Of a stretch of DNA of 64,000 nucleotides, positions 12,351-52,525 are shown in pieces. A program made the translations under genes and the position numbers. Positions within the stretch are counted from its first letter, which is position 1; each line of letters begins with the position of its first letter. The stretch is from Octopus sinensis (Eukaryota): positions 62,001 to 126,000 of the forward strand of contig NW_021836130.1 of assembly GCF_006345805.1 (NCBI RefSeq), written 5' to 3'. The notes under the pieces are model-generated. The model was not told the DNA's origin. It made no database searches and worked only from the letters and a program-made list of their open reading frames with translations.

Positions 12351-13156
12351 GATAACAGTATTTACTTACTATTATTAAATTTTAACTTTGGTACCTAGTC
12401 CGCTCTATTTATAACACAGGCCCGTAAAAGTTGTAAGGTGTATCTATCTAAATTTGTGTCGAATCTATGGTATTAAAAGTGGAAGAAAGATGAAAGTACA
12501 CAATTGAAGGCGGAGAGATAGACAATTTTATTCAAGAAAATAGACGTGCATTTTTGAGAGAACTTTATTGGAGTGGGAAATAATAATTTGTTGATGTTCC
12601 TCAGCAAATTTGGTTCTCAAGGAAAGGTATATCCAAGTGAATGGACATAATAAATCCGCTACGAATTTTATGCAATCGATTGTTAGAGACGCTAATTACA
12701 TGCTTCCTACAGATCAACATATTGTTGATGTTGAAATGCTGATTCATTCTAATGACCTTGAACGTTTTTAAATCTAAATTGCACTATATTAAATTTAGTT
12801 GAAGCGATTGTTGCAACTTGATCAGGAATACAGCAATCATTGATTATAAGAGATCAATAAATTGTAGTTTTGCTGACGTCGTTATTCTTTTCTAAATGAA
12901 AACTATTCCTGGATAATTTAGTCTAAAATAGATTACAGCTCTAATTGAAATATTTTTTAAATTCAGTGTAGTTGAAAATTCAGTTAGGAAATCTCCCAAG
13001 AAGATACTACAATTTTAAATATATTTTGTGTCTAATCAGACCACCTAATTCAAAAATCAGCAACTACAAAACCCCCAACACCAGCACAAACATAACAATA
13101 AAACTATCCCAATAAACTTTAGTTTAAACCAAAAATAAAGTCAAAAAACCAGACAA

Positions 13157-15539
13157 TCACCCTCTTCCATAAATGGACCCCTTAGTGGTCCTCGAATTCT
13201 ACACATTACAACCACACAAATCTACTTTTCTAGACATTGGCAGACTTATTGGAAATGTCGGCTTATATGTAAGTCTGACACGAAAAGGCAGATCCTTAAC
13301 TTTATATATCCTCACAATCCAATTCTCGCTCGTAAATGCCTCCTCCATGTGAGTCAACTCATTGACTACATGCCCAACCATCTGTCTCCTCGACTTGTCA
13401 TATCCATTAGTCTTTAATATATGTATAATACTACCAGCTTGTTATGAAAACGGTAGTAACAAAGTCGGAACATCAAAGAAGACTTCATCCTCTCAGAAAC
13501 GCCCTTTCCAATGTTATAGTTCCCCTCCGAGTCAAAATACTCATTTTCCTAAAATATCGGGCAATTGGGCACGTGGATCTCGTTAGGGTACTCCCCTTCG
13601 GATATTCGGACCATCCACAGAAACTTGGCGATATCGTCCGAGTCATACCCCAAATATCCCCCAAACACCACCAGAACATAATCCACGTCCAATTCCCGAG
13701 CTATTTCGGCAGCCCGTGACTCATTGGAGGCCATAGCTTTGCCCACCTAATTTGATTAGGAGAACAGTACAGTGGCAATATGAGTATTATTCCACGTATT
13801 ATTATCCACTATGGTGGTTCTGTTAGAAAACCCCGTTATTTGGTATCCGTAATCCCACCAGGACATGATCTTGGAGTCCTTTGGGGTGTTCCTTCCCAGC
13901 CAGTAGTAGGCCTCTCTGTAGTCGTCGATAATGTGGTGGGCTCTGCCAATAGTTGACTGATCAGTACCCGTCCTGTCCGCTTCCTTCCAGCACGATCGAA
14001 GTCCCCGAATACATCACGGCAGTAATCCACGTGCTGTGCACAACAAATAACGCAATCGCGGCAAAAAGTGAAGTTGTGGCCATCGAGAATGAAAAAAATG
14101 AATTTTTCTCAGTTCGGTGGGATCGAGAAATTCTACGGAAAACGGACTCCAAGGCAAAGGATGACACAATCGCGGAAATTGGGGTCAGAATAATCACCAG
14201 TCTGACCATCATCCCAGAAAAATAAGCAGAAGTGACAGCCAGAGTGAGAACCAGAATCATTTGATCACTCAAACGAGAAAAAGCCAGCCAAATTCCAATC
14301 GGAAAAACAGTCGGAATAAAATGCAAGTCAATAAAATATCTCGTCCAAATAGAAATCTGATGTTCAGCGACAGAAGAAATGATTGGAATGTTGATGGCCG
14401 CATAGGAAGTGTCAAACAACGAATAAAGACGGCCAGTCCAAGGGGAAATGACCCCTTCACTAATAACCCCCAAAAAGACTACCCAAATAAGTAAGGACGC
14501 CCACCATCAACACACTAACGAGGCCAAACACACCCAAACACAACAAAACCACCTTGGCTGCCCAACGAGAGTCACTTAGTGATCCCAAATGCTTAAAAAG
14601 TCCGACCAAACAGAGCAGTAGAAACACCACTGACATATTATACGAATATTACTGAGAGAAGACATATGTTCGCTGGTTGTGAGCGGAAGGAATCCCACAA
14701 AAGGTATCTGCATAGACATAAGTAGGCCAAGAATATAAAAAGTAGTATAAGCTGATAATAAAACATGTATAAACCAAACCACAAAACAATTTACTAGTAT
14801 ATCGACCAGATATAACAAGTATGAACACATGGAGAGGGATGACGTTGATTACATAAATATATCCTCCCCAGGAAGCCACCTACAAGTCAATAAACCTCCA
14901 CCAACTGCATATAAGTAGAAAAAAGCAGTAAAAACTGCCCAAAGGAGACTCCCAGACTTGACAGTCCTGGCCCACAAATACAGAGTAAACATGATTATAA
15001 ATATTGAAATACATTCATAGTCATAACTCCCTGCAACTGATCGGGAGACATATCCGGGGACTGGAAATGAGTGGAAGGGGACTACTTATGCTCATTATGA
15101 AGGCGGAGATCAACCCGGCTGATTTATTCCACACTTCTGAGGCAAATAAATAGGCTGTGATGGCCATTAGACCACTGTAGAAGGCAGGAAGGAATACACA
15201 GACTTCACGGATGTGGACTGGGAGGCTGAGGGAGTGGAGTGCCCAATGGAGGAGGCCGGATGTGCTCATTATGCCTGGGTAAACTGTTCCGCCGACGTCT
15301 CTTCCCAGGGGATACCAGGCTGACTCGTCAAACCAGTTTATAAAGTCATAAAATGAGTTCTCGACCATCATTTTTGTGGCACGATAGTTAAACCAGGGGT
15401 CGAATTCGTGGATTATGCTTTCGAATTTTATGACGGAGTGGAGTCTTGTTATGAACGATAAGACACATATTGAGATCAGAATTAGTGTCAGCAGAAATGT
15501 CTTTTGCCTTTCTATTTTTTGGTGATACAGGATCCCCAT
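13157..15539 (-). CDS. STT3B: Oligosaccharyltransferase catalytic subunit, STT3B-like
   Basis: [60 protein letters not shown]; introns such as 15061-15085 (25 nt); 3' end assumes a final micro-intron. Confidence 0.93.
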
Positions 15540-18084: not shown

Positions 18085-19110
18085 ATGGAACAGCATAAAT
18101 TGATGTCTATTCAACAATTGGAATACAATCAGAATGATTCAACGGGTAATTTATTATCAAAGAAATACCACGAAAATTATAATTCTCATTACAAATTCAA
18201 TGTTTCTAATAACTTGGAAAAAGTGTACTCCGCTCCACAAATGGAATACAATTCAATCTCCGATAAATTTGAAAACAATCCTCAATCAACTTCGATTGTT
18301 AACTACCAGCAAGACCAGAACGTTGAAAGTGCTCCAATTTCGAATGGAAAAAATAGAATCAAGAGACCAATGAATTCTTTTATGGTCTGGTCGAGAGTCC
18401 AACGTAAAAAAATGTCTTCGGAAAATCCAAAAATGCATAATTCTGAAATTTCAAAAAGATTGGGAAATAATTGGAAGATGTTATCCGAGGAAGACAAAAA
18501 ACCTTTCGTCGAAGAGTCCAGAAGACTTCGAACTATCCACATGCGAGACTACCCGGACTATAAATACAGACCACGTAGAAAAAACAAAAATCTGGCAAAA
18601 AAGGACCATCATTTTATTCCTATGGACATGACACATCAAGTTGTGTCACATCCTATATCCAGTCATAGCATGAATATCAGTGAAAATTATTTCCCTGAAA
18701 ATGGCAACTTTACGAGACCCCCATTGACTGATTTGTACTCTCAACAAAATCCATTTAACTATCAAGCATATTCCAACTTTGGAACTAGTTTCCAAAACGG
18801 ACAATTCCCTCACAATCCAAACGCGTTTGTCCAATATCAGCAAATGTCGAATTTTATTCCTCAAATCAACCCTGAGAACGGAATACAGCTGGCATCCAGT
18901 TTTGACTACTATCGAAATTCCTTACAAAATAATCAAGAAACAACCGATTATTCAATTTACCAATCAAGATATGACCCACAACGTCGACATAACTCTGGAA
19001 AAGTTTTTTTTAATAATATTTCTGTAGTTTCAAATGGATCACACTCACCACTAATGTGCTATGCAATACTAGGCTTAGCAAAACTATTTTATTTTATACG
19101 ATTTTACTAA
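18085..19110 (+). CDS. SoxB: SoxB-group HMG-box transcription factor
   Basis: [40 protein letters not shown] followed by the group-B basic motif; a possible 25-nt intron near 19003-19027 would change the C-terminus. Confidence 0.92.
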
Positions 19111-19711: not shown

Positions 19712-20346
19712 ATGTCAGAAAACGGTAATGGAACTATCAGCAAAAATCCAGACAATTTTGATCATTTTATAAAAGCCGAATTTGTGGTATAAAAAATAAA
19801 TTTCCAAATTTATTCCAGGAAGACGTAGATTCCTTCATGGAACTCAATAAAGGGGACGCACAAGGAGCACTCGAACGATTCCAAGATCTACACAGGAAAT
19901 TCAGATACATCGAATCAAACTTTTCTCTAAGCAAATCTCGGTTTAAATCATTGATTCTCAATATCAAGTTACCTGAAACAAATCCCCGACTTTACGGCTT
20001 CCTTGGACTCAGTAAGACACCTAAAGACGCTGAGTGGAGACGAGGATCTCACGTGCAGTTATCTGCTTTGTAGTCAGGTCTATTCGAAGGCTCGAATAAG
20101 CTCAGTATCGAGTGTGTATTTACTGCTGGGAGTATAAATGTGTTATAAAGGATGCAGGCGAATATAATGATGGAATATGAGTTGGATGAGGCAGAAGCAT
20201 TTTTAGACAAGAACTATAAGGAAGCACTCAGACAGATTGCCAAGTTGGATGAGCGGCTCAACTATATTCAGGACCAGAAGACTATTCTGGAAGTCAATAT
20301 GAGCAGGATCTTTATTTGGCAATCAAATCGTGATAAAAATGTCTAA
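19712..20346 (+). CDS. VBP1: Prefoldin subunit 3 (VBP1)
   Basis: AEFV|EDVDSFM, KFRYIESN, VYLLLG|ANIMMEYELDEAEAFL, QKTILEVNMSRIF; micro-introns. Confidence 0.88.
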
Positions 20347-21960: not shown

Positions 21961-22917
21961 ATATTGAAAGTTTAGGCTTTCCAGTTTTGTGATATTTCAC
22001 ACAATTTTTTCCAAACCTGTTTAATAAAAAAGCTTATTTTTATCAAATTAATAAAAATGGACTATTTTCATAAATCGGAATACCCATGGAAACATAAGTA
22101 AATAATGTGCGAGGCAAAGAAGAACGCTGAAACGACTTATAAATCCACTTACTGCATTCCAAGTCAAATGCCGGGGTAAATGTGAACTAACTAAGCCATG
22201 GCAGCTACCTAGGACACGTGCCGACAACAAAGTATCGTTTTGGGGATACATTTGGGAATATAAGTGCGGATTATTTTATTTATAATCGTCTCAAATGCGT
22301 GGAGGAGTCTGGGAGTATTAAAGGAGGGTCGATTCCCACGTATTTCACAAACAGACCCAACCTTGTTTGGGAAGCACGACAAAACACTCGAAAAGCTAAT
22401 TTCCCTAAAAATTATTTCGACTTTTTAAATTCGTCCCCCAAAAAAATGGCCGAAATGAACGAATTTTATGAGGTTTTGCTATTTTTTGAATTTAAATAGA
22501 AAGTACAACAACACAGAATGTCATACAAGGACAAATGCCGCAGAGGACCAGGACTTTGTCACTTTTCCATTCCCGACAACTATAATAACAGAACACCCTA
22601 TTAACCATTAAAATATACTAATATCAATTTTCTGGGTTTTCATAAACATCATAAATATTTTTTTTATAAACTAAAAAATATTCTCAGAATAAAATTAAGA
22701 AAGTTTCAACTGTAGATTAAAAAATGGTTTTTCCTGTGACTTAATGAAAATAGCCAGCACGTGAGTTATAAATTATAATTTATTTACAAAGTGTAATCAC
22801 AAAAAAACAAATTATTTTAAAAATAAAAATAAATTAAAAAATTGTTCAATATTTAGAATAAAATAAAACTTAATCCGAAAAAAATACACTATTTTGTGGT
22901 ATCTAATCAGTGCCTTG

Positions 22918-24290
22918 ATGTCATCAGTTGACAAATCTACTCTAAAATACACAATGGCCAAATTAGGCCTCCTCCACCACTACTATCCTCTCAAAAGTAA
23001 AATCTCCGAGTACACCCACCCTCTTATACCAATAGACATTCTCAACTGAGTATTAAACTCATCAAATCAGTGGGAATAAACAAGAATTCTGCACGAATAT
23101 TAATAAAAGCAATAAACCAATCCACATCTGCTGATTCCGTCATTTGTGTGCCACATGAGGACATAACATACACACGCCTCATCGGCAGTGGACAGAGCAC
23201 GACTGTCCATGAAGGATTTATGGCCGGAATGAGAGTGGCAGTCAAATCTATTGACACAAAACCCTCAAAACTGGACAGAAATATGTTCATTAGTCTGGAA
23301 CATGCCAATTTAGTCCAGTTAATAGGCCTAACAGTCGAATCCCCACTCCTCATAATCACCACATTTATCCAAGGGGGGACCCTTAGAGAATTTCTGAATG
23401 ATCAGCCTATTCTCCCCCCAATAAACAGACTCCTACACTTTTCAAGACAAATAGCCAGTGGAATGGCCTTTCTACATATCAATAATATTATCCATGGCTC
23501 TCTCTCTGCCAGCCAAGTCCTTCTTTCTCCAGTAAATGTGGTCAAAATAACCGATTATTACCTCCCATGTGACTTCTCTCTCAACAACCCAGCCTGGCGA
23601 GCCCCAGAACTTCTAGAATGTTCTAGAATAACCAAAGATGGTGACGTGTGGTCATTTGGAGTGACTGTTTGGGAAATATTTGCACATAAAACACCCCCTG
23701 GGAAGGCTTCAGTCCCCAAGAATTGTTGGTGGCACACAAAGAGAAGACACTCCCTAAGAACGACACCTGTCCTTTCCCCTTAGAAGGCATCCTTAAGCGG
23801 ATTTGGGTCTCAAGGAAGAGACCTTCATTTATATCATTAATTCTACAACTAAATGATGTAATGAGTGGTATATTGAGTGTAGATGTGTATTCCAGTGGTT
23901 GAGGCAAAGGACAGGTGGGAGAGGGGGCTGAAGGTGACAGCACGTGACTGTATTGCTGTGATTGATTGGAGGGATGACTATGAGTGGAGGGGGCAGAATC
24001 TCAGAACTTTGCAAGTCGGGAATTTTCCCTCCAAGCTTGTGAGAATGGTTAAGTCAGTCAAGTCTGTTGACTTTGTTGAAGTTGGGAGGATTGTTCCGGG
24101 GACTGTGTATCATGCAGGACACAGAGATATTGATGGGACTGGGTGGGGACAGTCATCACATGTTGATAGTTTGTTTATCAGGTCTCAGGCTCGTCCCAGT
24201 AGTATTCGAGTGAGCTTGTTTTGTGACTATAATAGATGGCACCACAAGAATCATCTGATGAATATTGATATATTTATTTTATTTTAGTTG
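22918..24290 (+). CDS. ACK/TNK2-like protein (SAM, kinase-like, SH3, CRIB) with a degenerate catalytic site and a 1-nt frameshift near 23695
   Basis: VAVK, WRAPE, DVWSFGVTVWEI; SH3-like WRGQNLRTLQVGNFP; CRIB-like VYHAGH; HRD reads HGS and DFG reads DYY; 3' end approximate. Confidence 0.75.
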
Positions 24291-24503: not shown

Positions 24504-26142
24504 ATGATAACAGAAGATTCCATTTCCCGGCCAAACGTAAAACTGACCTTCGACGGAAAACGTTTAAGAAAGTCATTATACCGTAAAACAATCGACTATA
24601 ACTCCTCTGCCCTCTACTATGTACAAAACAGACACATCTCAAAATTCCCAGGCCGAAGAAAGCAGTGCATTCAACCAAACGAATTATACGCCTTCCAAGT
24701 AATAAAAACAAATCAAACAACCAGACAAGAAAGCCCTGCCCTTCTCTATCCAGTGCAGTCTCAGTCACGTGCACTCGATTTGTCAAACAAGCCACCAACA
24801 AGAAGAGGTGTCCAATCTACACTGTCATGGTCAGTGGGCTAAATATGACTAGTGGACTCCCGATGGCCGGAGATTGACCACAGGCTCGGCCAGTGGAGAA
24901 TTCACCCTCTGGAATGGCCTGGTTTTCAATTTCGAGACAATTTTGCAAGTTGGTGATATTTTAAAGCAGTAGGCCCACGATGAGGCAATTCAGGCAATGG
25001 CGTGGAGTCACAACGACAACTGGCTGGTCTCGGGGGACAGTCTGGGCTTCCTTAAATACTGGCAGCCCAACATGAACAACGTAAAAATGTTCCAGGCCCA
25101 CAAGGAGTCAGTCAGATCACTGTCCTTCTCCCCCAACGACGTCAAATTCGCCTCCTCCTCCAACGATGGGACAGTGAGGGTCTGGGATTTCATATCCTGT
25201 CGAGAAGAGAGGATATTCCGTGGTATTCTCAGTGGGGGAGTGTAGAACACGGAGCGGATGTGTCCTCCGTGGATTGGCACCCTCAAATGGGGCTCCTCGT
25301 CTCCGGAAGTAGGGATTCCCAACGTCCAATCAAGTTTTGGGACCCTCGGACTGAGACTAGTCTGAGGACACTGTAGAAATATATATAGGAGGGTTTAGTC
25401 ACGTGCATAAGGCAGGGGTGACTCATGTCCGGTGGAGTGTGGACGGGAATCGACTACTGTCGGGATCGGAGGACAGGACGATCAAATTATTTGATACGAG
25501 GAAGCTGAGTGTGCCAATTCAGTCATTTGTGGGGCACAAGAAGGAAGTGAGTGGTACCCTTATTGGGGGAGTTGTAGTATTGGAGTGGCATCCGCTTTAT
25601 GGGGATGTATTTGCGAGTGGGGGGAATGATGGGTCTATTTTCTACTGGTCGGTGGGGACTGAGAAGGAGATTGGGGTGGTGCAGGACGCCCATGACAGTA
25701 CTGTGTGGTCACTGTCGTGGCATCCTCTTGGCCATTTGCTTGTTTCTGGGTCGAATGACCATTCTATTAAGTTCTGGACGCGTTATCAGCCTGGGGATCA
25801 ATCTCAGCTTGAGTTTGTGGCCAATGGAGGGACTAATCGAGAGGAGGAAGGAGAGTCAGATGTGCTGACTATTCTCAGTGATATGCAAAATTGTAAATAT
25901 GTGGGGAAAATACCTGGTTTGGAGGGGACTGAGCCACTCGAGGTTCCTCGGAGGCCGGTTCCTGTTTACAGTCGGCCATCTGGTTCTCGCTTTTCTGGTC
26001 CTTCGTGTATTTATTTGTGTTTATATGATAGATGGAATGAACTATGGCCAGTTTCGTGGGGATTATTGTTTGGATTGTTTATAATGTTGTAGATGACAGT
26101 CATCAAAGCAACCTGGGAGAGTTCAATGACCGTCCTTATTAG
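24504..26142 (+). CDS. WDR33: Pre-mRNA 3'-end processing WD40 protein WDR33/Pfs2
   Basis: [31 protein letters not shown]|[43 protein letters not shown]. Confidence 0.93.
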
Positions 26143-27152: not shown

Positions 27153-28182
27153 TTAGGTCATATATTGGTTAAAAATTGTCTTTATTTGGGCCAACTCGGC
27201 TTCCTGAGATTTGAAAATCAGAAAACCTTGGCATTGAGACAACTCACCAAATAGGCATTCTTCATCTCAATCTTGCGATAATTTTCCTCGACAGCAGCCA
27301 CATCAGTGCTATGTTGATTGCCCATTTCACAAATAGCCGAATTAGCCCTACAACCATAATACACCCATCCTAACTCCTCAAGCTTATTCTGCGCCTTCTC
27401 CAACAACAAATTATATTTTTCTGTCAGTTTTTCTACTTCTTTGTTCAACAAGCCATTCGTCGACTCCAGTTCTGACCGAGCCTATCGAATAGACCCCTCT
27501 CCCAAACTTGCTCAGACTCTACCAGGAGACCACGAGCCTTCTCAAATCGGTCGTGGAGGTTGTGAAATGAGGCTTCCAGTGCCGTGTAGTCATTCTTCAT
27601 ACATTCCACGTTTTTCTTCAAATTGAGCTCAGATTCTCGCCATTTCGCAACCTCCGACTCATATTTGTCTATTTTTTGGCAAAAAAACTCCAAACACATA
27701 ATTTCAAGGGTCGTTGATTTATACAGTGCTAAAAGCTGGTCTGCCAGAGTCCTTTTAGGGACATTCACCTCAGGAGACTGCTCCGGGAAGTCAGAAATGG
27801 CGGGAAATTCTATCGAATTGAGGTTTGTGCTGGAAGCTATAAAAGGATCGCCATTTTCTGGAGTAGGAATGTGGAGAGGGTCAAAATCCCGGAATATTGA
27901 GCTGGAGAGGGGCTTTGGGGACTACAGAAATGCTTAATGCCCTCATACTTGTATCATATTTGTGTCTAAAAGATTATCTTATTAAATAAACCGTCGTTTT
28001 GTGTGTCTATAAGAATATGTCGAGTACTAAAATGTGATATTAATTAATTGCCTATCTTCCCGACTGAGGGGTGATTTGTAGTTGAATGATGTGATTTTGA
28101 GGTTAGTCTGGCTGTCTGAGGTTTTGTTTGACTGGTCAGACTCCAAACAATTGTTTAGGCAATCTTCTGTTGAATTTTCCAT
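27153..28182 (-). CDS. TACC: Short transforming acidic coiled-coil (TACC) domain protein
   Basis: LEASFHNLHDRFEKARGLL..., EKYNLLLEKAQNKLEE|ANSAI resemble the TACC C-terminal domain; exons joined through 23-26 nt introns. Confidence 0.7.
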
Positions 28183-31358: not shown

Positions 31359-32180
31359 ATGTTGGGACATCCTCAGTCGCCTGTTGTGCTCGAAAGTCTC
31401 GGTTTGCTTCATTCCACATTGATTTACTTCAATTTTGGAGTGGTGGTTTGTGCAATTTATAGAATGGTATTGTGTTGTCTGATTGAGTAGATTCCTGCTG
31501 TGATGAGAGTGGCTGGATTGGACTGTTCGAGTAAGATTAGGATCAGAAGAAGACGAATTTTGACAAAAGCATGTAAAATGATTGGGTTGTCTCGTGCCTG
31601 TTACGATGTTGTTTTTTCAAACAGAACTCAGTGCAGGGTCAGTCACATCCCAAGATTCCGTGCCGGGTGTTAAATAAAATTAAGTTCAAGCCCGGCTGTC
31701 CAGACTATGGAAAATACGTCTATGAAGAGCTGGATTAGCCGGCTTCAGATGGAGATCAGGAGAGAAATCCGTGAAATCGAAAGTCCACGGTAAGAGCGGG
31801 CCTGCAGACTAGTTGAGAGGCGCTTCCCAGATTTCTGGAAACAATTGAAGATTCTGTCGGGAGAGAGGTCAACTTTGACTGCATTGTCGTTGCTCACGAC
31901 GAAATTGACATCTGGAAAAAAGGGGCAGGCGGATTTCAAAATGGCTGTACTCATCTTCGTTAGATTATCCAGTTAGGTGGTTCAGCCTTTCAAAGAGGAG
32001 TCGTCACTAAAAGATATTGTCATTGACGACAAAAGCTGTGTTTCCGTTCTTGTTCTTGCCTTTAATTGGTGTGTACTGTTTTGTTATTTTGGTGAGTGTG
32101 TTGCTGTTGTGGATCAGAGTATCGCCGACGGAATGGCGTATGACTTCATAGAGAAGTGGAAAGAGTCAATGACTCTATAA
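31359..32180 (+). CDS. Probable unidentified multi-exon gene or pseudogene
   Basis: GC-richer block with GT..AG micro-intron candidates; last exons read RFPDFWKQLKIL...FKMA|VVQPFKEE...DFIEKWKESMTL; 5' structure unresolved. Confidence 0.4.
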
Positions 32181-32334: not shown

Positions 32335-32794
32335 TATTCAAAGGCTCGAATAGAATCAGTATCGAGTGTGTATTTACTGCTGGGAGTATAAATGTGTTAT
32401 AAAGGATGCAGGCGAATATATTGATGGAATATGAGTTGGATGAGGCAGAAGCATTTTTAGACAAAAATTATAAGGAAGCACTCAGACAGATTTGCAAGTT
32501 AGATGATCGACTCAACTATATTCAGGACCAGAAGACTATTCTGGAAGTCAATATGAGCAGGATCTTTATTTGGCAAACAAATCGTGATAAAAATGTCTAA
32601 TTTGTTTGATTATTATGCTCTTATTTGTTTTTTTATTTTTTGAGAGGACTTGGTGATTTTTGGACAGGGAATATATACAGGGAAAGATGAAACCTTATTT
32701 TTGTGTTCTTTTTTTGTATCATTGTAGACAATATACCAAAAAATTAGGACAATTTTTTTATTTTTGACATATGAATTTTTAGCACGTGCCATTG
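32335..32794 (+). pseudogene. VBP1: Duplicated 3' part of prefoldin 3 (intron, last exon and 3' flank)
   Basis: Near-identical to 20081-20547 including the 26-nt intron; 5' exons absent. Confidence 0.9.
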
Positions 32795-34610: not shown

Positions 34611-36114
<1,504 letters not shown>

Positions 36115-36453: not shown

Positions 36454-39400
36454 ATGAATAAATTGAACGAGAATTCGAAAGTTAAGGTGGCCATTCGGTA
36501 AATAAATTTCAATCACCACCAGTGTCCGTCCTCTCACCGGGAGTGAGTTATGTGAGGAATATCCCTACTACACTGAAGTCCTACCTGAGACCTCCCAAAT
36601 ATTGTTGGGAGGCAATAAATATTTCACTTTCGACCACGTTTTTGGGGTCAAATCCAATCAATCTCAAATCTATTCCTCAATCGCCCACAATTTAGTGGAA
36701 GGGTATTTCCCTATCTAATTGTAGGTCCTTCGAAGGCTACAATGCCACAATCCTCGCATATGGACAGGTTTTATAACTCCTTTCTACTTTAGACCGGTTC
36801 TGGGAAGACTTTCTCGATGGGCTCGTCCTTCAACGTGGATTTGAAGGAAGACCAAGTGGGGATAATTCCTCGTGCTCTTTCTCATTTATTTTCGGGGATT
36901 AAAGCACGTTCTGAGTCAGAATTCAAACTGTCCATCCAATTTGTCGAGGTTTGTCAGGTCAGTTCAATTTGGCAGATTTACAACGAGGAAATCAGAGATT
37001 TGTTGGACATTGGCACAAAAGTAGTCCAAAATGGTCATATCGTAGAATAAAAGTCAAATAAAAATCCACGAGGACTCCCAGGGAGGAATATATTTGGTGG
37101 GGGCAACCATGAAGGTGGTGACTGACTTGGAACAAGTGACAAACCAACTCAGAATGGGTTGTGATCAGAGAACGACAGGAAGTACTAACATGAACAACCA
37201 ATCTTCTCGTTCTCATGCAATATTTTCTATTTTAATTAACCAAGAGAAAGTCATTGAGTTGGAAAAAGTTGATTAATTAGTCTGATTGGATCAGGGTGAG
37301 TCACACAAGGAGATTCTCACATCTAAATTTAATTTTGTGGATCTTGCTGGGTCAGAACGACTAAAAAGGACTGGTGCGACTGGAGAGAGGGCAAAGGAGG
37401 GGATTTCTATAAATTGTGGACTGGTTTGGTGTGTTTGGAGGACTCTAGTTTGCATTGGGCAACGTAATCTCAGCTTTGGCTGATAAAATGAAGACAGGGA
37501 CATTTGTGCCTTATCGGACTTCAAAGCTGACTCGAATATTGCAGGATTCGCTTGGGGGGAATAGTCGGACTGTCATGTTGGCGTGTGTTTCCCCCTCTGT
37601 CCGTGACTGTATTGAGACAACTGGGACAGTCGAATATGCAAATAGAGCAAAGAATATAGAAAATAAGGCAACAGTCAACCAAGATCTCAATAGTCGGGAA
37701 ATTATGACTCTTCGGACACAAATATTGAAATTGCAGAAGGAGTTGGCCAGTTGTGGGGTATTTGGACTTGTGGTGGACTGGTAGAATTCGGATGGGATGA
37801 GACTGAGACTGATTGACCTAGAAATGGAGAATTCGCAGCTTCACCAGCAAATAAGTGAACAGAAGCTAGAAATTAGTCGTCATATTTCCCGTTTTGAAGA
37901 GATTCAGATCAATTCAGATAAAAATAGGCTGGAAGAATATTTGGCAGGTGAGTTGTGTGATTTGAGTGTAGTGTGTGGTGGGGAGGACATGGGTTGTTCG
38001 GATATTATCATAAAAGAACTAATAGAAGAGAACTCGTCACTCAAGTAATCTCATTTGAGTAATGTGAAGGAATAAAATATTTGATTTGGAGTCACTCAAA
38101 CATGATGACAAAACACCCGACACTGATGTGAGTGGTCTAAATGAATTAATAGATTAATCAACTCATCCAAACAGTGCGCAGACAAAGAGAGGAATCTACA
38201 AGAATGTGTTCTGATACGTAAATAATAAGCAAATTAGTTAATTTATTAGACAAAGTGAGGATATGGAGAGCAGAGAGGAAGATAACACGTTGATTGAGAG
38301 AGATGGGACTGTGGACGGCATTTCTGATTCCAGTCAAATGGTCAGTCTGGCACAGGAGATTGAGTCGAAAGAAAGGCTGATTCGAGTGATTGAAACCTCC
38401 CGTATTCGCTGCAAAGAGATGGAGACTTGTTACGAGACTAAAATAGGAGCAATGCTCAGCAAAATAAAGTCCTTGGAGCAAGAACGTGATTTGATATCAA
38501 GACGAAACAGCAGTAAATTAACCTCTGTAATACTCAATAGACAAGAAGGATGTCCGTTCTAACGAGAGAGTGGAGGAATGTGAGAAGAAGATCGCAGAAT
38601 TAAATAGTTGTGTTCAGAAATACAAGTCATTACTGCGAGAGAAGACACAGCAACTCAAAATCACTGCCACTTCTGAGCGGGACCTTCAAATGCTGAAGAA
38701 AGAATTGGCGGAGATGAAGAAATTAAAGGTGTATTGTGAAATATATTTAAGGTCAATATGATGAAGAAAATGAGAGAGGAAGCCACTCGGAGTCGACAGA
38801 GGGATGTGGGTCATACCAAAGAAGTCAATCAACTCGAAAGGAAGTTTCAGCGAACATTGTCTGATAACAGAAGTCTAAAAATTGGGTTGGAGCAGAAAGA
38901 CTCGTTGCTAAAGAGGAAGCAGGCCGATGTTGGAGTGTGGTGGATTAACTAATTAGATTGAGAGTCTGAGAAGGAAGAATAGGCTAATCAGTGTGGAGGC
39001 GACTAAATCGAGTATGACTGTGTTATTTATGCTTAGATAGGAGAAAGATATTGAAGGAATTGGTCGACAAGAACATAAAAACAGTGGAGGATTGGATTTC
39101 CAACATGAGTGGACATCAAGTGACAATCAACAATATAGAAAAGGACATGTTCAGTTGGGTTAAGGTAGTTTGAGAACATTCTAGTCCTTCTAGAAACAAA
39201 ATTCATATAAAAAACGGCTTGTATCATTAAGGGAGAAGAGATCACGTCTCCCTGCTCATAAAACAGTTGGTTATGAATTATGACGAGAAGGATAAGGCTG
39301 ATTTGCTGGATACAAAGATATCCTCGGTGGAGTCTACGATTGAGTTTATAAGCAGTCACGTGAAGGATTGTCAGTCAAAGATAACACATTTCATGTCCAA

Positions 39401-41304
39401 AAAGGTGGAGTGTGAATTATGAGTATAGAATGAATTTGGGTCTGCCGACGAGTTGTCCTCCAGTCTATGTGATTATTTACAGAATTCTGAGGATATCAAG
39501 CCGATTCTGGTCAATATCCTCGAGAACATGATCGAGAAGGCTGATTGTTGTAGACTAATAGACAGATTGTGCAGTTGGAGAAGACCATTGTGGATAATAA
39601 GGCACTTCGTGCGAGAATTTCCAAATTGGACGCACGGAGTAGTTTCAGGGCGGAATTGTATGGCAATCTGATGGACTTGGTGCCCAACGACGAAGACAAG
39701 TTGAATATTGACTTGAGTTTCCTCGGAGATGACGTGTCTGATCCAGATTTCGACGATGAAGAAGGTTGAGTGACTAATATTCCTCCCAGAGACCGAGGAT
39801 GAATTTGACGGAGACATTCCTTCCACAACCAATCCTAATGAACTGTATTACCTTATGATTCACACTGCAGGACAGTTCAAGTTGGTGTCGTCCAAGATGT
39901 TGGTATTTTGGTTTAGTTTTAGGAAGTTATTCCAAGAAAACACAGACTGACTGCCATGCCCTCGATGATTGACACTTTGTCCAGGTGGTTGAACTGTTGT
40001 TGCATGTTTAGTACTATTGCTACGTCGTCGAGTGGAAGTGTTGTACCTGTGCCTCATCACATGTTCATCAAGTCGGCCAGTCACACTTTCTCTATCTCAG
40101 ATGTACAGAAAATAAAGGACGCGATGGAGAGGTAGTGTCCATCCTCAACTTTAGTTCTCGGTTTTCCCACTTTTCTGAAGGAAAGAGCGGACCCAAGTCC
40201 TTATTCCTGGAGAATGTGTTCGAAATAAGAGGGCCACGTGGGGGAATTGTGTCAATGAGTGCCAGTCAGGATAGACTTGTCAGTTCTAGCAAGGGTTACT
40301 CTCAATAACTGATTCCAGACTGTTCGAATAATTTGTGGGATTTGGAGGCGTTTTGTGAAGTGCAGACTTACAGTGGATACCCCCACGTCACGAGGAATAT
40401 CAACCTTTCCCCCGAACTGAGGATGGTGGTCATGACGGCTTCGTACTGCTCAATGGTGTGGGACATTCGAGAGCCTGCTAAAAAGAAATTTTCTATTTTT
40501 TGGTTATTTTTACATTTTGAGTGTCAGTTCTGATGGAAGTGTATTCAGGAATGCACAAAGTTTTAATGAAATGCCCAACGCTTGTTCGACGCCGTTGGTT
40601 GTGTGTTTATCTGTGGATAGACTAAGTCTGTATTCTTCTCATTCCAATGTTGTGAATGTCTGGATTTGTCCAGGTTTGCACATTGGGTCATTATTTTAGA
40701 ATGGAAGCACGTCCCAATACATTTATGTGCGACTCTTTGATTGTATTTTTGCTTGAGGTGGTCATTGAGGATGTTCTTTATCTCATTGCTGCTTTGAAAG
40801 ATCGAACTCTTTGTGTATATTTTGGGAGAATAACTTGATAAGGTGTTTAATGTGAAAGGGGACACTTTTGGGGAGGTTCACCCCAGATGTGTTGTTCGCA
40901 CTCCCCACAATGATAGAATTGTCCATCTATATGTGATTGGGAGTTTTCTATTCTCAGTAAGTCATGACGGGTGTGTGTGTAAATGGGATGTGAGGGATTC
41001 GTTAAGAATAGTCAATGTGATGTCTATGGTTATATTTCTAGAGGAATGTTCTGGAACATTCTGGAAGGAGTATTCAGTGTGTCCACGATATTCCGTTTTT
41101 GGAGAATGCGTTTGTTAGTGGGTGTCGGAATAGTGTGGTCAAAGTGTGGAATTCGGAGTCGATGGAGTGCAATGACTCGTTTAAAATTAGTGACAAGGGG
41201 ATTAATTGTTTTGCTGTAAATAATGATGCTCTTTTTATCGGATTGGAGTTTGATTTTTTATTTAATATTTTAGTTTCATTTCTGCATGGAAGAACAGGAT
41301 GTAG
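36454..41304 (+). CDS. KIF21: Kinesin-4 family KIF21-like motor with coiled coil and C-terminal WD40 repeats
   Basis: VKVAIR|VRPL, AYGQ|[54 protein letters not shown]; WD40-like C-terminus; many micro-introns. Confidence 0.88.
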
Positions 41305-42740: not shown

Positions 42741-42779
42741 GACAAGGTCACCAATCATAGGAAAGGTTTTGTGACAGCT

Positions 42780-43440
42780 CGGCATTTTCTCTGTTAGATT
42801 TACGCCACAACCACCTTGATATCGAATCTCCTCGTTTTTTCCAGTAGTTTTATAATTCTTGCCTTAGAAGGGGACAAGATTCACCCTTCCAGCCCATACA
42901 TCACCACAGGAAGAATACCAACCTGGAAAATAAATAGCAGGGTCTCCAGGGGCAGGAAAAATTTGATTAGGCACATGCTCATTTATGTACATCGTTTTTT
43001 CCTTAGAATAATGTCTTCGTCACACTTTCCATTTTCAGAAAATTGGACTCCCAGGTATAAAAACGATTAGGTCTTCCGAATAATGTCAATCGTGTATGGT
43101 AAGGTTTTTGCACTTCTACTCGAGTGTGACATCTCAATTGACAGAGTCAAGTAATTCACTGTCACCCACTGTTTTATTTAAGTAGATTTTTAGTTTCATT
43201 CCTGAATTCGCCTGAAAGGCTGCCTCGAACGTAATAATAACGTCATCAGCATAAATAAACACATTTGTTGAGATGCACACATGTTTTGGAAAGTTTTCCA
43301 TATACACTTTAGTTTTTTTCTATGACTTTGGAACTTATCCTCTTTGGAGGCTGGCAGATGGATCTTCTTCCAAAACCACTGCGAGCTGATTGCGGAAGAA
43401 TTCGGTAGTCTCCTCTTGGCTCGACAGGCATCCTCTTGGA
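42780..43440 (-). mobile_element. Degenerate non-LTR RT fragment
   Basis: FIYADDV near 43240-43260 and YLGVQF near 43040-43060. Confidence 0.65.
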
Positions 43441-43567
43441 AAACGCAGGCAAACTTCAAATGTCATCTGAAAAAATCAATTTGTCAATAACAACCTTTAA
43501 ATTTGTAATTACGAAAGTCAATTTTGCATATAAGAAATTTTCGTCAAAATACATCGAAAATTGTTTG

Positions 43568-44652
43568 ATGCCTGAAAAAACAAGATATCGAAAATACAAT
43601 GATGATACAAAAAAAATAATAATTGAAGCACATTAAAATTTTGGCGATTGGCAGTCTCTATGCTCCTCTCCTGGAGTTAATTTGAGAACAGCTTATCTTT
43701 GGATTGAAAATAAAGATAAAGAAAGACATCCAAGAGGAGGTAAAAGACATTCAAAAAAATCAAATAAATATAAATGAATTAATCAGTTGGATTGAAACTG
43801 ATCCTCAGATCACTTTGAAAGAATGCGCGGAGAAAATACGAAAAAATTATTCAATGTCTGTGTCGGTTACAACAGTAAAAAATTGGCTTGATGGGGAATT
43901 AATTTCTCTCAAAACCTGTTGACCAATAGTTGCAAACGTAAATTCACCTGAAAATAAAGAAAAAAGAATATATTATTTGGATTGCTTGTTTAAAGCAAGG
44001 TCTCCTGGAAGAACTTTAATTTGGATCGATGAATCCAATTTTAATTTATATTGTAAGAGAAAAGAAGAACGATCAAAAATAGGATCTCGTTCTTTTGTCA
44101 TTACTCCAAATTCGAGAGGCTCTAACTTACATTGTATAAGTGCAATGTCTGCTTCAACATTGTTTAATTTTCATTCAAAAGAGGTTCTTACAGAGGAGAA
44201 GATTGTAAAAAATGGATGAAAGAGTTAATTAATGAATGCAGGTCTTCAGGCGTACAAGATCCCACTTTTATAATTGACAATGCTCCTGTTCACAATCAAT
44301 TGGAATCAGTTGTTGATCAAGAAGAAAATATTGAACTTTTACGATTGGCTTTATGTTCCTACTTATTAAACCCAATCAATTGGCCTGGAGTACTTTCAAA
44401 GCAGAAGTAAAAAAAATGCTAAGAGAAAAGATGCCAATAATTCTCGAATATAACAAAACTTCGGATGGTTCTTCAATTTTTGAATATAGGCTAAAAATGT
44501 TGGAAGAAATCGCAGGAGAGGCAAAAAAGGTTCTAACGCCACAAAAATTAATGGGATTTGTTAACCGGGTTGAAAGGTATTATCCCCAAGTTACTCGTGG
44601 TGAAGACCTTTTTTCAGCACAGGTAGCACGTATTTACATTTTGTTGGCGTAA
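43568..44652 (+). mobile_element. Frameshifted Tc1/IS630-type transposase
   Basis: HTH region (WIETDPQITLKE..SVSVTTV) and DDE motifs IWIDESNF, IIDNAPVH, LNPI; no TIRs recognised. Confidence 0.8.
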
Positions 44653-45072: not shown

Positions 45073-46051
45073 TCATTCAGCAATATCTTCGAGATAGGTT
45101 ATAAGGGATGTGAGGCCATTTATATAGTTCATGTCTAACTCATTAGAAGGCAATGCATGAGCAAAGTCAATCATTTTTATTTCAATCTGCTCTTCCTTGC
45201 ATTCTTTGAAATCAGTTTCATAAATTATTAAAATTGATGTTGCGATAAATCTCCACGTTTTTTGAATTTCGAAAATTTTTAGGAGCTCTTTCAGTTTTTG
45301 TATTACAATTTTTAAATATTCTCTCCCATTTGCGAAAAAAAGACTCAATGCTGTAATTATTAATAAAATAAATATTTTTCACCATTACGAGTTGTTTCGG
45401 GTGTAAGCTGAAGGCCATATTCCTTATCGTAAACGTCGTAATAATCAAACCGGCACCATCTCTTTAGAATTTAAGTATTGACACAAAAACCCTCATTCCG
45501 CATATTCGAAATTTGATGATATCTGCAAATGGAAATTTTTTCATCTTTTTTTCCCTTTGAAGCTCAGATTCCCATGTGACTTGACCAATTTTGATATCAA
45601 TTAATGAAGGATTCTGAAATTTTGCTGATAGATCTTCGAGACAAACATAATCTAAAATTAATTATTTATTAATTGTTAAATTACAATTCTCAGATTCTTT
45701 ACAATATACAGTATAAAAATAATCTGCAGTGAATGTATACAAAAGATTTTGTATACTACCAATCGGAGCTTGTGAAACTGTTTTGTAGTAATTTGTTTCC
45801 ATAATTCCTCGATTATCATTTTTTAACTTTTTTAATAACTTTCCTTCTCCATAACTAAGAAATTCTAATATTTAAACAAAATTTGTGATACTACCATCCT
45901 TTTCCCCTTTAGAGCTTATTCCTGCAACCTGATGAAAATATGGTTTTGTTTCTTTTAAGAGTACAACTTCCTAATTTACAATTTTTAATAATATAATAAA
46001 TATTTACTTGGAATTCTTGCTGCATTTAGAATATATAGTAGTTGATTTCAT
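45073..46051 (-). CDS. IPMK: Inositol polyphosphate kinase, IPMK-like
   Basis: HQVAG, LEDL...PSLIDIKIG (PxxxDxKxG), FIATSILIIYE, KMIDFAH, D.NYINGL. Confidence 0.8.
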
Positions 46052-48475: not shown

Positions 48476-48988
48476 CTAATTAGCCATGATTGTCCTGGTA
48501 CATTTCCCACATGTGCTCCTATTTTTGTGTTTGGCCATCATGGATGCAGGCCCACATTCAGGATTGGGGCACCGATCTCTCAACAACGTGACTTCTCCGT
48601 CGTTGTTGACTTTGTAGTATTTCAGAGCAGCCATCACGACTTTCTTTCTTTTGTGTTTCCTCTTCTTTGGCGTGGTGTGCTTTTTGGATTTCTTCTTCTT
48701 CTTTCCTCCCAGGAGGGGCACAAATTGATGGAGGGTTGACAGATCCTTTATTCCATACGAATCCAACGAACAATCTGCACTCAATGTTGAACCCTTGTGG
48801 CTAATATACACCTCATTGAGTGAAATTCCTTTAAATGTTCGAGAATTAAACGGAACCTGTCTTTATGGAAATTTGTTCAAGCAATGTTCGAGTCTGGTCG
48901 GTCTCTGAGACCTAGATTAGATGGATTAACTGAGGATTACATTACAGCACAGTGTTCCTTGAGAGGGGGTCTTGACGAATATCTGCAT
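48476..48988 (-). CDS. RPS27A: Ribosomal protein eS31/S27a fused to a highly diverged ubiquitin-like domain
   Basis: Introns 48912-48940 and 48829-48856; a 76-aa UBL ending LLGG is followed by KKHTTPKKRKHKRKKV..LKYYKV and a C4 zinc finger. Confidence 0.93.
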
Positions 48989-49370: not shown

Positions 49371-51117
49371 TTATAAAATAGAAATTTCAATAATCTTCTC
49401 ATTTTGTCGGCACATAATTTTACAATTTTTGCAAAGAACTGATAAAATATTTACAAAAAACTCACCCAACAAACTCGAGAAATATCTCGCTGCAGTTTTT
49501 CGACTGTTCCGTGTTGGAGGACAAATTTGGTCGAATGTAGTGACCCCCCTCAGAAATGACTGTTCCTTACATTTCTCCAACACTCTCTCATCAAATGTGG
49601 ACGTGGCAGAACTATTAAGCGACGTTTCAGTCAATTCGGGGATTTGAATACTTCGTTCAGTTTTAGAATTAAAACTTCTGTTATCAATTTTCAAGTCAAA
49701 ATTACATTGGTTCATAATTTGTTAGAATTGCAGGAGATTTGTGAAATCTTTCACTTGGTTCTTCTTCTTCACTTTGCATTCTCCTTGCCACCTCAATGCT
49801 GTTATATTTCACCATTTTTCCGCGTTTCGGAAAATGGATTACAATCGGTGGAGACCAAAGGTTATTAAAGTTTTCTAAAAGTTGATTTATTGTTAAAAAG
49901 ACTGGCAAATTTGCTTGAAAGTGTTTCAAATGACAAAGGAAGTTCGTGATTAACCAATTTAAGTTTTTTACTTGTTGATTCAGCTCTGTTTTTATTTTCT
50001 TTTAATTTGTCAATGCTGTAGTTAGTCACTTGATCTACAATTAGTCTTTAGTTTTCCGAACACACCTCTTGACTTGCTAAAGAGTCAATTTTATAAAATT
50101 AATTTAATTATTCTACAAATTTATACTACAAGTGCTATTCAAATGTGACAAATTCACTACTTGACTTATTAAGTGTATAATTCTCACTTACCGATTCTCT
50201 GGGTTGACTGAGCTCGATTCCCTGACTGATGGACATTCCCTGAAGGCCCAATGCCTCGTCCAAAGGTCGGTTTCTTTTTGGAATTGGAGTATTTGGTTGC
50301 TCATTTCTAACACTTTGGGGTCTTTTGATGGACTTGTGTCGGAAATGGAGGAGATTTGTTCTTGATTTTGTAATTCGTTGAGGAGACTTTGGAATTCTTC
50401 TTCGTTTAAGGGGGGAATAATGTCTTGATTGTATTGGATTGTATTTCTGCTGAAATTTTCTTCTTGAAGTGTTATTAATTGTTGGTTAACCGTGTACAAA
50501 TCTAAAAAGAGCGGGAAAATTATTTTGAATGACGTGGTGGAATTAATTAAATATATAATAAATTAAAATACCCATAGAATCGGTGATTTCGTCCTAAGAA
50601 TAAATATAGTGAACTAAAACCAGATAATTAAAGTCAAAATAATTGTTCTGGTCTTCATCGCGAATAAAAAACTCTTTTCTTTTAACTCTCTGTCTCCGAA
50701 TAGGCCTCTTTGTGGGAGTAAAACTGGCAGACAAGTGCCTCGAGTAGAAAGATCGAGTAAAGGACTTGATGTCGGCTAGGAAATTTAATGATTTGCTTAC
50801 TTATCAGGTATTCGATTTGCTTAGAGTAAACTCGGACTACTCCAATGACTAATTTGGCCGAAAGATATAAAGAGAAGCGAGTCTTTCTCCTCCCACGCTC
50901 TGTGTCGAGGAGACCAAGGACATGGGCAGCCAATTCCTCGCTAAATGAATATTTTTGTACAGAAAAACCAATTTTCTACAATATTGGTCTTGTTATATTC
51001 GAGTTTTGAGATTCTCCCACTTTTGGTGGCAGCGATCCTTAAATATGTGGCTAATTAGTACCAAATAATTCCAAATTTTCCTGTCCTTCTTTGTAAAAGT
51101 TGATGTATGTAGAACAT
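49371..51117 (-). CDS. REC8: Meiotic cohesin kleisin REC8
   Basis: MFYIHQLLQRRTGKFGIIW|IAAT..RFSLYLSAKLVIGVVRVYSKQ; C-terminal SRKTAARYFSSLL. Confidence 0.85.
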
Positions 51118-52525
51118 TTTGATCAAATTTGTATTCAGATTTGATTTAAAATTTAAAATATTTATTTGTAAATGGTAAGCCAAAGATAAAATAGTATACA
51201 TTTTTAATATAAATTAATTATAATAATAAATAAAATTTTTGTTATAAAATTGAAATATGTAATAATTTTTTAAATCTTCAAAAAATTAATAAAATTGTTC
51301 ACTTTAAATCAAAATCTAAATATTTGTTAACTAAAAATAACAAATTATTATATCCCAACAATCTCAACTACTTTAATAACTAAAAAACTGTGATTTTACT
51401 TTTTTTGATTAATTTACTAATTAATCGATTTAATTAAAGTCGCTAAAATCATTCAAACTCTAAAAATCGTACTCAAATTCATTCGTTCTAAATGCTCTCA
51501 GAATTTATTTATTAAATTAAATTGAAAATATTTATGATTGAAGACTTTTTAGAAAGCACGAATTAGTATTATTTTATTTATCCAATGCCTTCTCTAAGAC
51601 ATTCAGACTATTTTTCCAAACATTTTTTTCATTTATATTTCAATGAGAAAAGAAGTTAAATTCGAGTTTCGATCTTTGTTTAGACGCTCTCCTAAGTTTA
51701 GTCTATGGAGTATCAAGTCCCACGGATTGTCTTTAATACATTCATGTAATTTTGCTTATCTTAGGCAAATTTTTTGCTTGCTCTGAGTACGTTCAGAGGA
51801 CTGGCAAAAACAAAATTTTTTAATTTGAGCATGTCTTTTGGAGCGGTTTATGTATTTTTTAATTTACTATTCTCGAACGTCACTCCAAAATAAGGTAGCT
51901 CTTGCACAAATGGACTCTCCAAGGTTAGTCTTAAAAACAAAACTTTCACAAAACCCCGCTGACCAAATAACATTTAAAAAACTAAACATTCTGCTAGAAG
52001 AATGGTTCTCAAGTATGAATCCTCTTTAACATGAAGTGTAGTAAATGTGACAGTCTGATAAAATTTCAAAACTACTTAATTGTAGATGCAAACTACTTCA
52101 ATCGGAATCTGTAAAAGATTTGATTTTAAAAATCAAAGAATTTTTACTTATTTTATGTTTACAAACATCAAATACAATTCCAGCCAAATCAGAACCAGTT
52201 ATTCAAATTTCTAAGGCGTAAAGACTTTAAAATTGTCCAGAATATTCTAAATTCTAAATTATAAGGACTCAAAGGACCCTACATTATTAAAGGTAGTCTT
52301 GTAAATCATAAATTTTCTCTAGAGAACGTAAATTAATATTAAATCAAATTTAGATTATTTTCATGCAAAGTTAAAACATTGTTTTTTAAGCAGATAAAAA
52401 TCATAGAGGAAGCTGATAATAAAAATGTTGTGTTGAACTGATTTTATTTTTTTAAAATAGAATAATTTTAACGATATTTTAATATAAAATTGTTTCTATG
52501 GAATCGTAACAATTCTGGATATATA

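What the first reader, a model, noticed from the sequence alone, without database searches (positions are those of the whole stretch)
13100..51200. Most genes carry their own C/A-rich to G/T-rich compositional gradient, introns included
Seen: STT3, PFDN3, ACK-like, WDR33, TACC, PSMC2, KIF21 and REC8 each start C/A-rich and end G/T-rich, and the skew resets at the AT-rich spacers. Introns show it without coding constraint. PSMC2 sense introns go from gtatttcactaaaatataacaaaacag and gttttccaccaaaaaataactcaag (5') to gttattttttgtgaggaggtcag and gtgttggttgaattggattatttgtag (3'). WDR33 goes from gtaataaaaacaaatcaaacaaccag to gtttggattgtttataatgttgtag. The pattern is reverse-complement symmetric, so orientation cannot separate its causes. 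Inference: each gene behaves as a separate mutational unit. Candidates are gene-sized replicons or excised molecules, breaks in the spacers leaving deamination-prone single strands, or an extreme transcription-coupled bias. Dicyemids are reported to have extrachromosomal circles and somatic DNA elimination, which makes the first option worth testing.
Basis: partly seen in the sequence, partly recalled or inferred. Interest (0 to 1): 0.75.

Follow-up and report, generated by a model that had tools for sequence, protein, structure and literature searches.

The report
Gene-end strand skews in a dicyemid
In DNA likely from a dicyemid (a tiny cephalopod parasite), most genes are C/A-rich over their first ~400-500 bases and G/T-rich over their last ~400, in introns and silent codon sites alike, a strong animal version of a pattern known from fungi that likely records transcription-linked mutation rather than gene-sized replicons or circles.

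Summary
The gradient is real. In 303 non-redundant predicted genes from 1.85 Mb of the same contig class, intron GC skew runs -0.16 / +0.15 / +0.29 and four-fold GC skew -0.21 / -0.01 / +0.07 (first 400 bp, middle, last 400 bp). TA skew moves the same way. It repeats in 81 held-out genes, and 7 of the 8 named genes are individually significant. It is not a whole-gene gradient: two end-anchored decays (~500 and ~400 bp) around a plateau fit better than a length-scaled slope. It is independent of neighbour orientation, has no mirror image in spacers, and the two ends of one gene co-vary while ends facing across a spacer do not. DNA contigs bridge both KIF21 ends with no circle joint listed. Gene-sized replicons and circles are not supported; transcription-anchored strand-biased mutation is likeliest, but mutation versus selection is untested. 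Closest known: opposite 5'/3' GC skews in fungi (PMC3315797); here TA skew co-varies and promoters are unskewed. This scan already noted the pattern on other DNA of this genome.

The parts
13157..15539 (-). STT3 gene model, 11 exons; 5' zone C/A-rich, 3' zone mildly G/T-rich (delta +0.68, p 0.0005)
   Evidence: model; Pfam STT3; test
   Evidence: a 95% copy of its 3' part lies at 32335-32554
22918..24268 (+). ACK-like tyrosine kinase gene model; delta +0.71, p 0.0005
   Evidence: Pfam PK_Tyr_Ser-Thr plus weak GTPase_binding
24504..26142 (+).
   Evidence: Pfam WD40; quoted introns located
27153..28182 (-).
34611..36114 (-).
   Evidence: four quoted introns located
36454..41304 (+). KIF21-like kinesin, 32 predicted introns of 22-32 nt; 4.85 kb with short end zones; delta +0.42, p 0.0025
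   Evidence: Pfam Kinesin and KIF21A_4th; intron totals match spliced contigs in 11 of 16 intervals; DNA contigs bridge both ends
49420..51201 (-). Rad21/REC8-like gene, modelled as two fragments (49420-50304, 50543-51201); 5' zone -0.25, 3' zone +0.05, weak
   Evidence: Pfam Rad21_Rec8_N
22105..22604 (+). small gene model that does not follow the pattern (delta -0.12)
31359..32180 (+). gene model that does not follow the pattern (delta -0.15)
45073..46025 (-). low-GC gene model with no significant gradient (delta +0.07, p 0.31)
48476..48988 (-). ubiquitin-like/RPS27a gene, C/A-rich throughout its 0.5 kb (delta +0.17, p 0.15)
   Evidence: Pfam Ribosomal_S27

Best explanation
Most genes of this likely dicyemid carry a C/A-rich zone over the first ~400-500 bp and a weaker G/T-rich zone over the last ~400 bp of the coding strand, and these zones are likely the long-term footprint of strand-biased germ-line mutation tied to the start and end of transcription. 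Shown: the zones have fixed length, stay inside the transcription unit, ignore neighbours and co-vary within a gene. Shown: relative to mid-gene, the template strand near the start and the coding strand near the end both lose C and A and gain T and G. Inferred: this is the C->T plus A->G signature of damage to exposed single strands, or of uneven repair. Inferred: the coding strand is exposed near termination (pausing, R-loops), and the template strand is exposed or under-repaired just after initiation (antisense transcription into the 5' region, or repair not yet engaged). Genes of 1-2 kb with ~26-nt introns are short enough that the two zones meet, so they look like one gradient per gene.
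For: Zone skews with gene-bootstrap CIs: introns GC -0.164 [-0.219,-0.112], +0.145, +0.294 [+0.243,+0.347]; four-fold GC -0.212, -0.009, +0.069; TA +0.098/+0.229/+0.297 and -0.066/+0.057/+0.131. Same direction on both strands, on all six contigs and in intron cores. Held-out genes: 61 of 72 and 67 of 81. Fixed length: dLL 388 vs 333 for length-scaled models in 300 genes; bootstrap advantage 36 [14,57] in 229 genes. Follows distance, not intron rank: third or later introns within 400 bp GC skew -0.15, beyond 600 bp +0.14. Neighbour-blind: 5' residual -0.156 tandem vs -0.140 divergent; 3' +0.067 tandem vs +0.066 convergent. G/T excess runs ~150 bp past the stop, then ends; upstream is flat. Mirrored change vs mid-gene, log2 for 5' template | 3' sense: C -0.68|-0.36 (introns), -0.53|-0.22 (four-fold), with T and G up and A down in all four; no CpG-specific excess. 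Precedents: PMC3315797 (parts 1-3 of 4 read); intron skew tracks germ-line expression in Drosophila (PMC5786239, passages).
Against: No mutation rate was measured. Haplotype differences were too few and could not be polarised (17 C/T vs 17 A/G on the 'exposed' strand). Variant density is not raised at gene ends (5'/middle ratio 1.01 [0.57,1.74], 28 genes). No expression, start-site or poly(A)-site data, so 'transcription unit' rests on ATG and stop codons from my own gene finder. The 5' sign is opposite to ordinary non-template-strand deamination and to the mammalian 5' C->T asymmetry (PMC2927911, passages), so the 5' mechanism needs an unshown step. 13 single-exon non-repeat genes show almost no gradient, which would suit a splicing-linked or selective cause, though they may be mobile-element ORFs. 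About a quarter of genes do not rise, and 4 of 283 are significantly reversed against 39 forward. Four-fold GC skew falls back to about 0 in the last 100 bp before the stop.
Confidence: 0.6

Rival explanations
1. Selection on the pre-mRNA keeps the 5' part poor in G and U (little folding, few R-loops, easier first splicing or export) and the 3' part rich in G and U (termination, 3' processing).
For: The pattern is confined to transcribed DNA and nearly absent in 13 single-exon genes. A T-rich tract follows the stop codon. McLean and Tirosh offer an adaptive reading for fungi.
Against: It is spread over ~400-500 bp of silent and intron sites, and shifts first and second codon positions and amino acids (KNQTPH 0.301 at 5' vs 0.266 mid). 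The 5' and 3' changes mirror each other base by base, which selection need not produce. Weak selection on so many sites is hard in a fast-evolving parasite (inference).
Confidence: 0.17
2. Germ-line double-strand breaks (meiotic or topoisomerase) at open chromatin on gene borders would be resected, exposing 3' overhangs that deaminate.
For: The polarity fits: the strand whose 3' end points to the nearest gene border loses C and A, as on the flanks of human hotspots (PMC7615360, passages). Peaks lie slightly off the ends. 5' skew is stronger where an AT-rich patch precedes the gene (-0.199, n=169 vs -0.108, n=134). Spacers turn over quickly (5-9% of bases unaligned at 100-400 bp and 34-48% beyond 1 kb between two haplotypes ~1.6% apart), which could erase a mirror.
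Against: No mirror upstream even for strongly skewed genes (+0.001). My rough estimate is that about +0.1 should survive turnover. Mirror coefficients in neighbouring genes are -0.005 [-0.23,+0.18] and -0.006 [-0.21,+0.17] against +0.51 and +0.36 expected if additive. Ends facing across short spacers are not positively correlated. 155 deep-intergenic and 33 intragenic AT patches show no flip. GC and variant density do not rise at gene ends.
Confidence: 0.15
3. Each gene is a replicon or an excised circle or linear piece, so leading/lagging-strand bias runs across the whole gene.
For: Dicyemids are reported to have chromatin diminution and extrachromosomal circles (PMC6543705, passages). The gene is the unit of variation.
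Against: The gradient does not scale with gene length and long genes have a plateau. X1 contigs bridge the KIF21 start and stop at depth 54.7 and 55.1, and no joint is listed within the gene other than one GT..AG intron in spliced contigs (one gene, contigs drop rare forms, X1 may be the source sample). Reported long circles are ~700 bp and mitochondrial or non-coding. Somatic products are not inherited (inference).
Confidence: 0.04
4. Artefact of gene modelling, codon usage or assembly.
For: Models come from a self-trained finder that splits genes with long introns; short-read contigs differ from the window at 19 listed KIF21 sites.
Against: The finder has no position-dependent term. The effect repeats in held-out genes, on both strands and in intron cores, and is visible in raw sequence. 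Intron totals match spliced contigs in 11 of 16 intervals. Wrong gene ends would be expected to dilute it.
Confidence: 0.02

Closest known systems
Opposite GC skews at 5' and 3' gene ends in unicellular fungi (McLean and Tirosh 2011, PMC3315797; parts 1-3 of 4 of the text read, supplement not seen)
   Same: C-biased 5' end, G-biased 3' end, constant middle; present at four-fold sites; changes amino-acid use; runs into the 3' UTR; many but not all genes.
   Different: Here an animal; shown in introns; TA skew moves with GC skew (flat in fungi, which led the authors to reject deamination); no skew upstream of the ATG, where most fungi are most C-biased.
C>G skew at transcription starts of plants and fungi (Fujimori et al. 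2005, PMC555766; passages)
   Same: C excess on the coding strand near the start. The paper cites a template-strand C-deamination proposal that matches the 5' signature here.
   Different: Plants peak at the start site with no AT skew, and the paper found no significant C excess in the animals it tested. Here the trough lies 50-300 bp inside the coding region, AT skew follows, and a mirrored 3' zone exists.
Transcription-associated mutation bias in animals (Drosophila PMC5786239; vertebrates PMC2927911; passages)
   Same: Strand skews in introns tied to germ-line transcription; localised asymmetry near 5' ends.
   Different: Drosophila intron skews are 1-8%, against 16-29% here. The mammalian local 5' asymmetry is C->T on the coding strand, the opposite sign, and is mirrored upstream of CpG-island promoters.
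Strand-asymmetric mutagenesis on resected flanks of meiotic break hotspots (PMC7615360; passages)
   Same: Same polarity and C/A-loss signature, off-centre peaks.
   Different: Hotspot asymmetry is two-sided over 1-2 kb; here it is one-sided, inward only and ~400-500 bp.

Membership tests
Fungal-type opposite 5'/3' GC skew (McLean and Tirosh) | C-biased 5' end, G-biased 3' end on the coding strand | tested here: met
Fungal-type opposite 5'/3' GC skew (McLean and Tirosh) | Three regimes: 5' ramp, constant middle, 3' ramp | tested here: met
Fungal-type opposite 5'/3' GC skew (McLean and Tirosh) | Present at four-fold sites and alters amino-acid use | tested here: met
   (amino-acid shift clear at the 5' end, slight at the 3' end)
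Fungal-type opposite 5'/3' GC skew (McLean and Tirosh) | Extends into the 3' UTR | tested here: met
   GC skew +0.09 to +0.11 at 50-150 bp past the stop
Fungal-type opposite 5'/3' GC skew (McLean and Tirosh) | Extends into the promoter, usually strongest there | tested here: not met
   upstream GC skew +0.05 to -0.02 in all bins, 199 genes
Fungal-type opposite 5'/3' GC skew (McLean and Tirosh) | AT skew flat along the gene | tested here: not met
   TA skew rises in introns and four-fold sites
Transcription-associated mutation bias | Skew confined to and oriented by the transcription unit | tested here: met
Transcription-associated mutation bias | Amplitude tracks germ-line expression | not testable with these tools
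   only contigs were available, which cannot rank genes
Transcription-associated mutation bias | New mutations are strand-biased in the same direction | tested here: inconclusive
   too few and unpolarised variants
Replication-associated skew domain (gene-sized replicon) | Skew changes linearly from border to border, scaling with unit length | tested here: not met
Excised or circular gene-sized DNA | Junctions or ends at gene borders in DNA reads | tested here: inconclusive
   none listed at KIF21, contigs bridge both ends; one gene, contigs only
Break-resection asymmetry | Mirror-image skew on both sides of the break site | tested here: not met
   spacer turnover weakens the spacer part of the test
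Dicyemida (source organism) | Close match to a named dicyemid protein; introns mostly under 30 nt | tested here: met
   A Pax6 exon on another tiny-intron contig of G000 (L183) is 99% identical to Dicyema acuticephalum Pax6. Intron median 26 nt vs 27 in Dicyema sp.. The link to the window's own contig is inferred from shared intron size; the window's STT3 had no hit above 66% among the 120 listed.

The most novel reading that the evidence does not exclude
Dicyemid germ-line DNA is cut or opened at the borders of each transcription unit and processed inward only, exposing ~400-500 bp of the strand whose 3' end faces the border. The skew would then map the cut sites of an undescribed gene-border process, possibly the one behind the reported DNA diminution and amplification.
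Probability: 0.1. Interest if true: 0.8.

Novelty: new variant of a known kind. Interest (0 to 1): 0.4.

Why it matters
The cause of opposite 5'/3' skews in fungi was left open, and deamination was rejected there because AT skew is flat. This animal shows both skews moving together, in introns, with a mirrored C- and A-loss signature. It is therefore a clean case in which single-strand damage at transcription start and end can be tested with population and expression data. The bias is strong enough to shift N-terminal amino-acid composition, which may affect phylogenetic placement of this long-branch phylum, and it can help locate gene ends in annotation. It does not point to a new replication or excision system.

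Tried and rejected
Length-scaled (linear, linear plus cubic) models fit worse than end-anchored ones. Neighbour-promoter and neighbour-terminator mirror terms are near 0; this rejects additive, not saturating, sharing. AT-rich patches as general reset points: no flip around 155 deep-intergenic patches or 33 intragenic ones (upstream -0.075, downstream -0.086, p 0.75), so the internal restart reported in e1-10334333 is not a general rule here. CpG or neighbour-base specificity: the shift appears in nearly all contexts, with no CpG excess. Mutation versus selection from five haplotype copies: one copy carries 339 of 550 minor alleles, so singletons do not polarise; an apparent doubling of variant density at 5' ends vanished in the 28-gene pair test. 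A first gene finder allowing introns up to 1500 nt fused neighbouring genes and was replaced by a 60-nt limit, which splits true long-intron genes. Rows dropped: of 723 predicted models, 331 passed (repeat fraction <=0.1, CDS >=450 nt, >=3 exons) and 303 remained after removing second copies. Run search: no RNA holder listed. Reads were laid on one gene region only, so other gene borders are untested for junctions. Literature: 'dicyem'+'skew' gave 19 papers, 15 listed, none on nuclear gene skew by title; searches listed no animal report of the two-ended pattern. Two relevant metazoan papers (PMC436054, PMC521644) were not held, so absence from print is not established. STT3 homologue search did not name the organism.


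Full report
Source. The window is G000:C12601:62001-126000 in a 2.72-Gb assembly of 13,516 contigs. It and five other contigs reached through a shared transposon are 33-38% GC and gene-dense, with introns of 22-33 nt, median 26. A Pax6 exon on another tiny-intron contig is 99% identical to Dicyema acuticephalum Pax6, and Dicyema sp. introns have a median of 27 nt (passages of PMC6543705). The window is therefore likely dicyemid DNA co-assembled with a host; the link between contigs is inferred from intron size.

Method. I wrote a self-training gene finder with no position-dependent term. For the KIF21-like gene, predicted intron totals equal the gaps in laid contigs of runs X2-X4 in 11 of 16 intervals. 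Three other intervals fall short by one intron, one by two and one by 6 nt, and the 32-nt intron 38218-38249 is matched exactly. On 1.85 Mb, 723 models gave 331 filtered and 303 non-redundant genes. Near-neutral sites were intron interiors and four-fold third positions away from junctions.

The six quoted introns are present. Of 17 multi-exon models in the window, 15 rise and 9 are significant; seven of the eight named genes are significant and REC8 is weak. In the first 229 genes, intron GC skew goes from -0.19 to +0.32 by decile and four-fold from -0.19 to +0.02 to +0.10. In 81 genes not used for training, 61 of 72 and 67 of 81 rise. With all 303 genes, first 400 bp / middle / last 400 bp: intron GC skew -0.164 / +0.145 / +0.294, TA +0.098 / +0.229 / +0.297; four-fold GC -0.212 / -0.009 / +0.069, TA -0.066 / +0.057 / +0.131, on both strands and in intron cores.

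Shape. It is not a gene-long slope. Two exponential decays, from the start (best scale 400-500 bp) and from the stop (400 bp), beat length-scaled models (dLL 247 vs 207-211, gene bootstrap 36 [14,57]; 388 vs 333). Adding relative position gives -0.02. The 5' trough lies 50-300 bp after the ATG and the 3' GC-skew peak 100-300 bp before the stop. Distance, not intron rank, sets the sign. Median gene length is 1.2 kb, so the zones usually meet and look like one gradient.

Anchoring. The 5' residual is the same with tandem and divergent neighbours (-0.156, -0.140), the 3' residual the same with tandem and convergent ones (+0.067, +0.066), with no clear trend over spacer length. Spacer DNA 100-400 bp upstream has GC skew +0.004 [-0.017,+0.024]; downstream the G/T excess lasts ~150 bp and stops. 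Terms for a neighbour's promoter or terminator are -0.005 and -0.006, against own-end terms of -0.51 and +0.36. Within a gene the two ends co-vary (rho 0.21; 0.28 in 152 genes of 1.2 kb or more); across spacers under 500 bp the facing ends do not (rho -0.17, n=65; tandem -0.31, n=41; divergent +0.43, n=11, not significant). One caution runs against my reading: between two haplotypes ~1.6% apart, 5-9% of spacer bases at 100-400 bp and 34-48% beyond 1 kb do not align, against 0% in genes. Spacers are young and are a poor record. My rough estimate is that about +0.1 of a mirror should still remain upstream, which is not seen, but it rests on one haplotype pair.

Signature. Against mid-gene, the 5' coding strand loses G and T and gains A and C; the 3' coding strand loses C and A and gains T and G. 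Read on the template strand at 5' and the coding strand at 3', both lose C most (log2 -0.68|-0.36 in introns, -0.53|-0.22 at four-fold sites), lose some A and gain T and G, in nearly all neighbour contexts and without CpG preference. By established chemistry this is what C->T plus A->G damage on single strands gives; here it is composition, not measured mutation. First and second codon positions and amino acids shift at the 5' end. Amplitude grows with the gene's four-fold GC (rho -0.26 at 5', +0.20 at 3').

Circles and replicons. In DNA run X1 one contig bridges the KIF21 start and another runs from 37542 to 42090 across its stop, at depth 54.7 and 55.1. The only joint listed within the gene is an intron in spliced contigs. 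This is one gene, contigs drop rare forms, and X1 may be the source sample. With the scaling result and the point that somatic products are not inherited, gene-sized replicons or circles get 0.04.

Mechanism. Best reading (0.6): germ-line mutation or repair bias tied to transcription initiation and termination. The 3' zone fits ordinary exposure of the coding strand; the 5' zone needs the template strand to be exposed or under-repaired, which is inferred. Rivals are selection on the pre-mRNA (0.17) and break resection at gene borders (0.15), whose polarity fits but whose two-sidedness does not. Haplotype variants could not decide between mutation and selection.

Comparison. McLean and Tirosh described the same three-part GC skew in unicellular fungi and speculated on why higher eukaryotes lack it. 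I recalled that paper and looked it up before opening the scan's notes. Two of its features fail here: AT skew is not flat and the promoter is not skewed. Fujimori et al. found no significant C excess in animals and rejected template-strand deamination in plants for lack of AT skew. Drosophila intron skews are 1-8%; the mammalian 5' asymmetry has the other sign. My searches listed no animal report of the two-ended pattern, but two metazoan surveys were not held. The scan has several earlier notes of the same pattern elsewhere in this genome; they are not independent support.

Verdict. Real, strong and genome-scale in the sample; a new variant of a known kind; interest 0.4.

Noticed in passing
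G000:C12601:51414-110001 vs 187755-251728; C9748, C9323, C9587: The window's region is present as at least five haplotype-like copies. One is ~98% identical with kb-scale insertions between genes; the others are 99.1-99.8% in most blocks.
   Followed up: partly
303 genes on six contigs: Four-fold GC ranges from about 0.15 to 0.70 and is strongly shared by neighbouring genes (rho 0.5-0.7, even beyond 1.5 kb), while spacers stay near 0.31-0.33: regional domains of silent-site GC.
   Followed up: no
G000:C8318:17183-17923, C9497:120112-122185, C8697:135301-136818, C9002:88623-92508: Four of 283 genes show a significantly reversed GC skew (G first, C last), two of them GC-rich, one a Rab-like gene by recalled motif.
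   Followed up: partly
window 42053-43453: High-copy retroelement-like remnant; in DNA run X1 one contig joins 43453 back to 42053 with 28 other letters between (depth 20), which could be a tandem copy, another locus or a circle of the element.
   Followed up: no
window 7662-11258 (-), 62371-63264 (-), 43923-44219 (+): An intact 1198-codon reverse-transcriptase ORF, a partial one and a DDE transposase remnant. Six long repeat ORFs show no 5'-to-3' gradient.
   Followed up: partly
window 32335-32600: A ~95% identical copy of the 3' part of the prefoldin-like gene at 19712-20346.
   Followed up: no
window 18085-19110 (+): Long ORF with an HMG box and weak SOXp hit, a Sox-type gene with at most one predicted intron.
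   Followed up: no
G000:C12601:760-3439: Tandem array of ~80-bp units near the contig start.
   Followed up: no
0-25 bp after stop codons, 303 genes: TTTATT is concentrated just after the stop (76 hits vs ~20-28 per bin further on) while AATAAA shows no peak within 300 bp, hinting at an unusual 3'-end signal.
   Followed up: no
genes on six contigs: CACGTG occurs 140 times in 488 kb of genes, more than the other palindromes counted (16-96), without a formal expectation.
   Followed up: no
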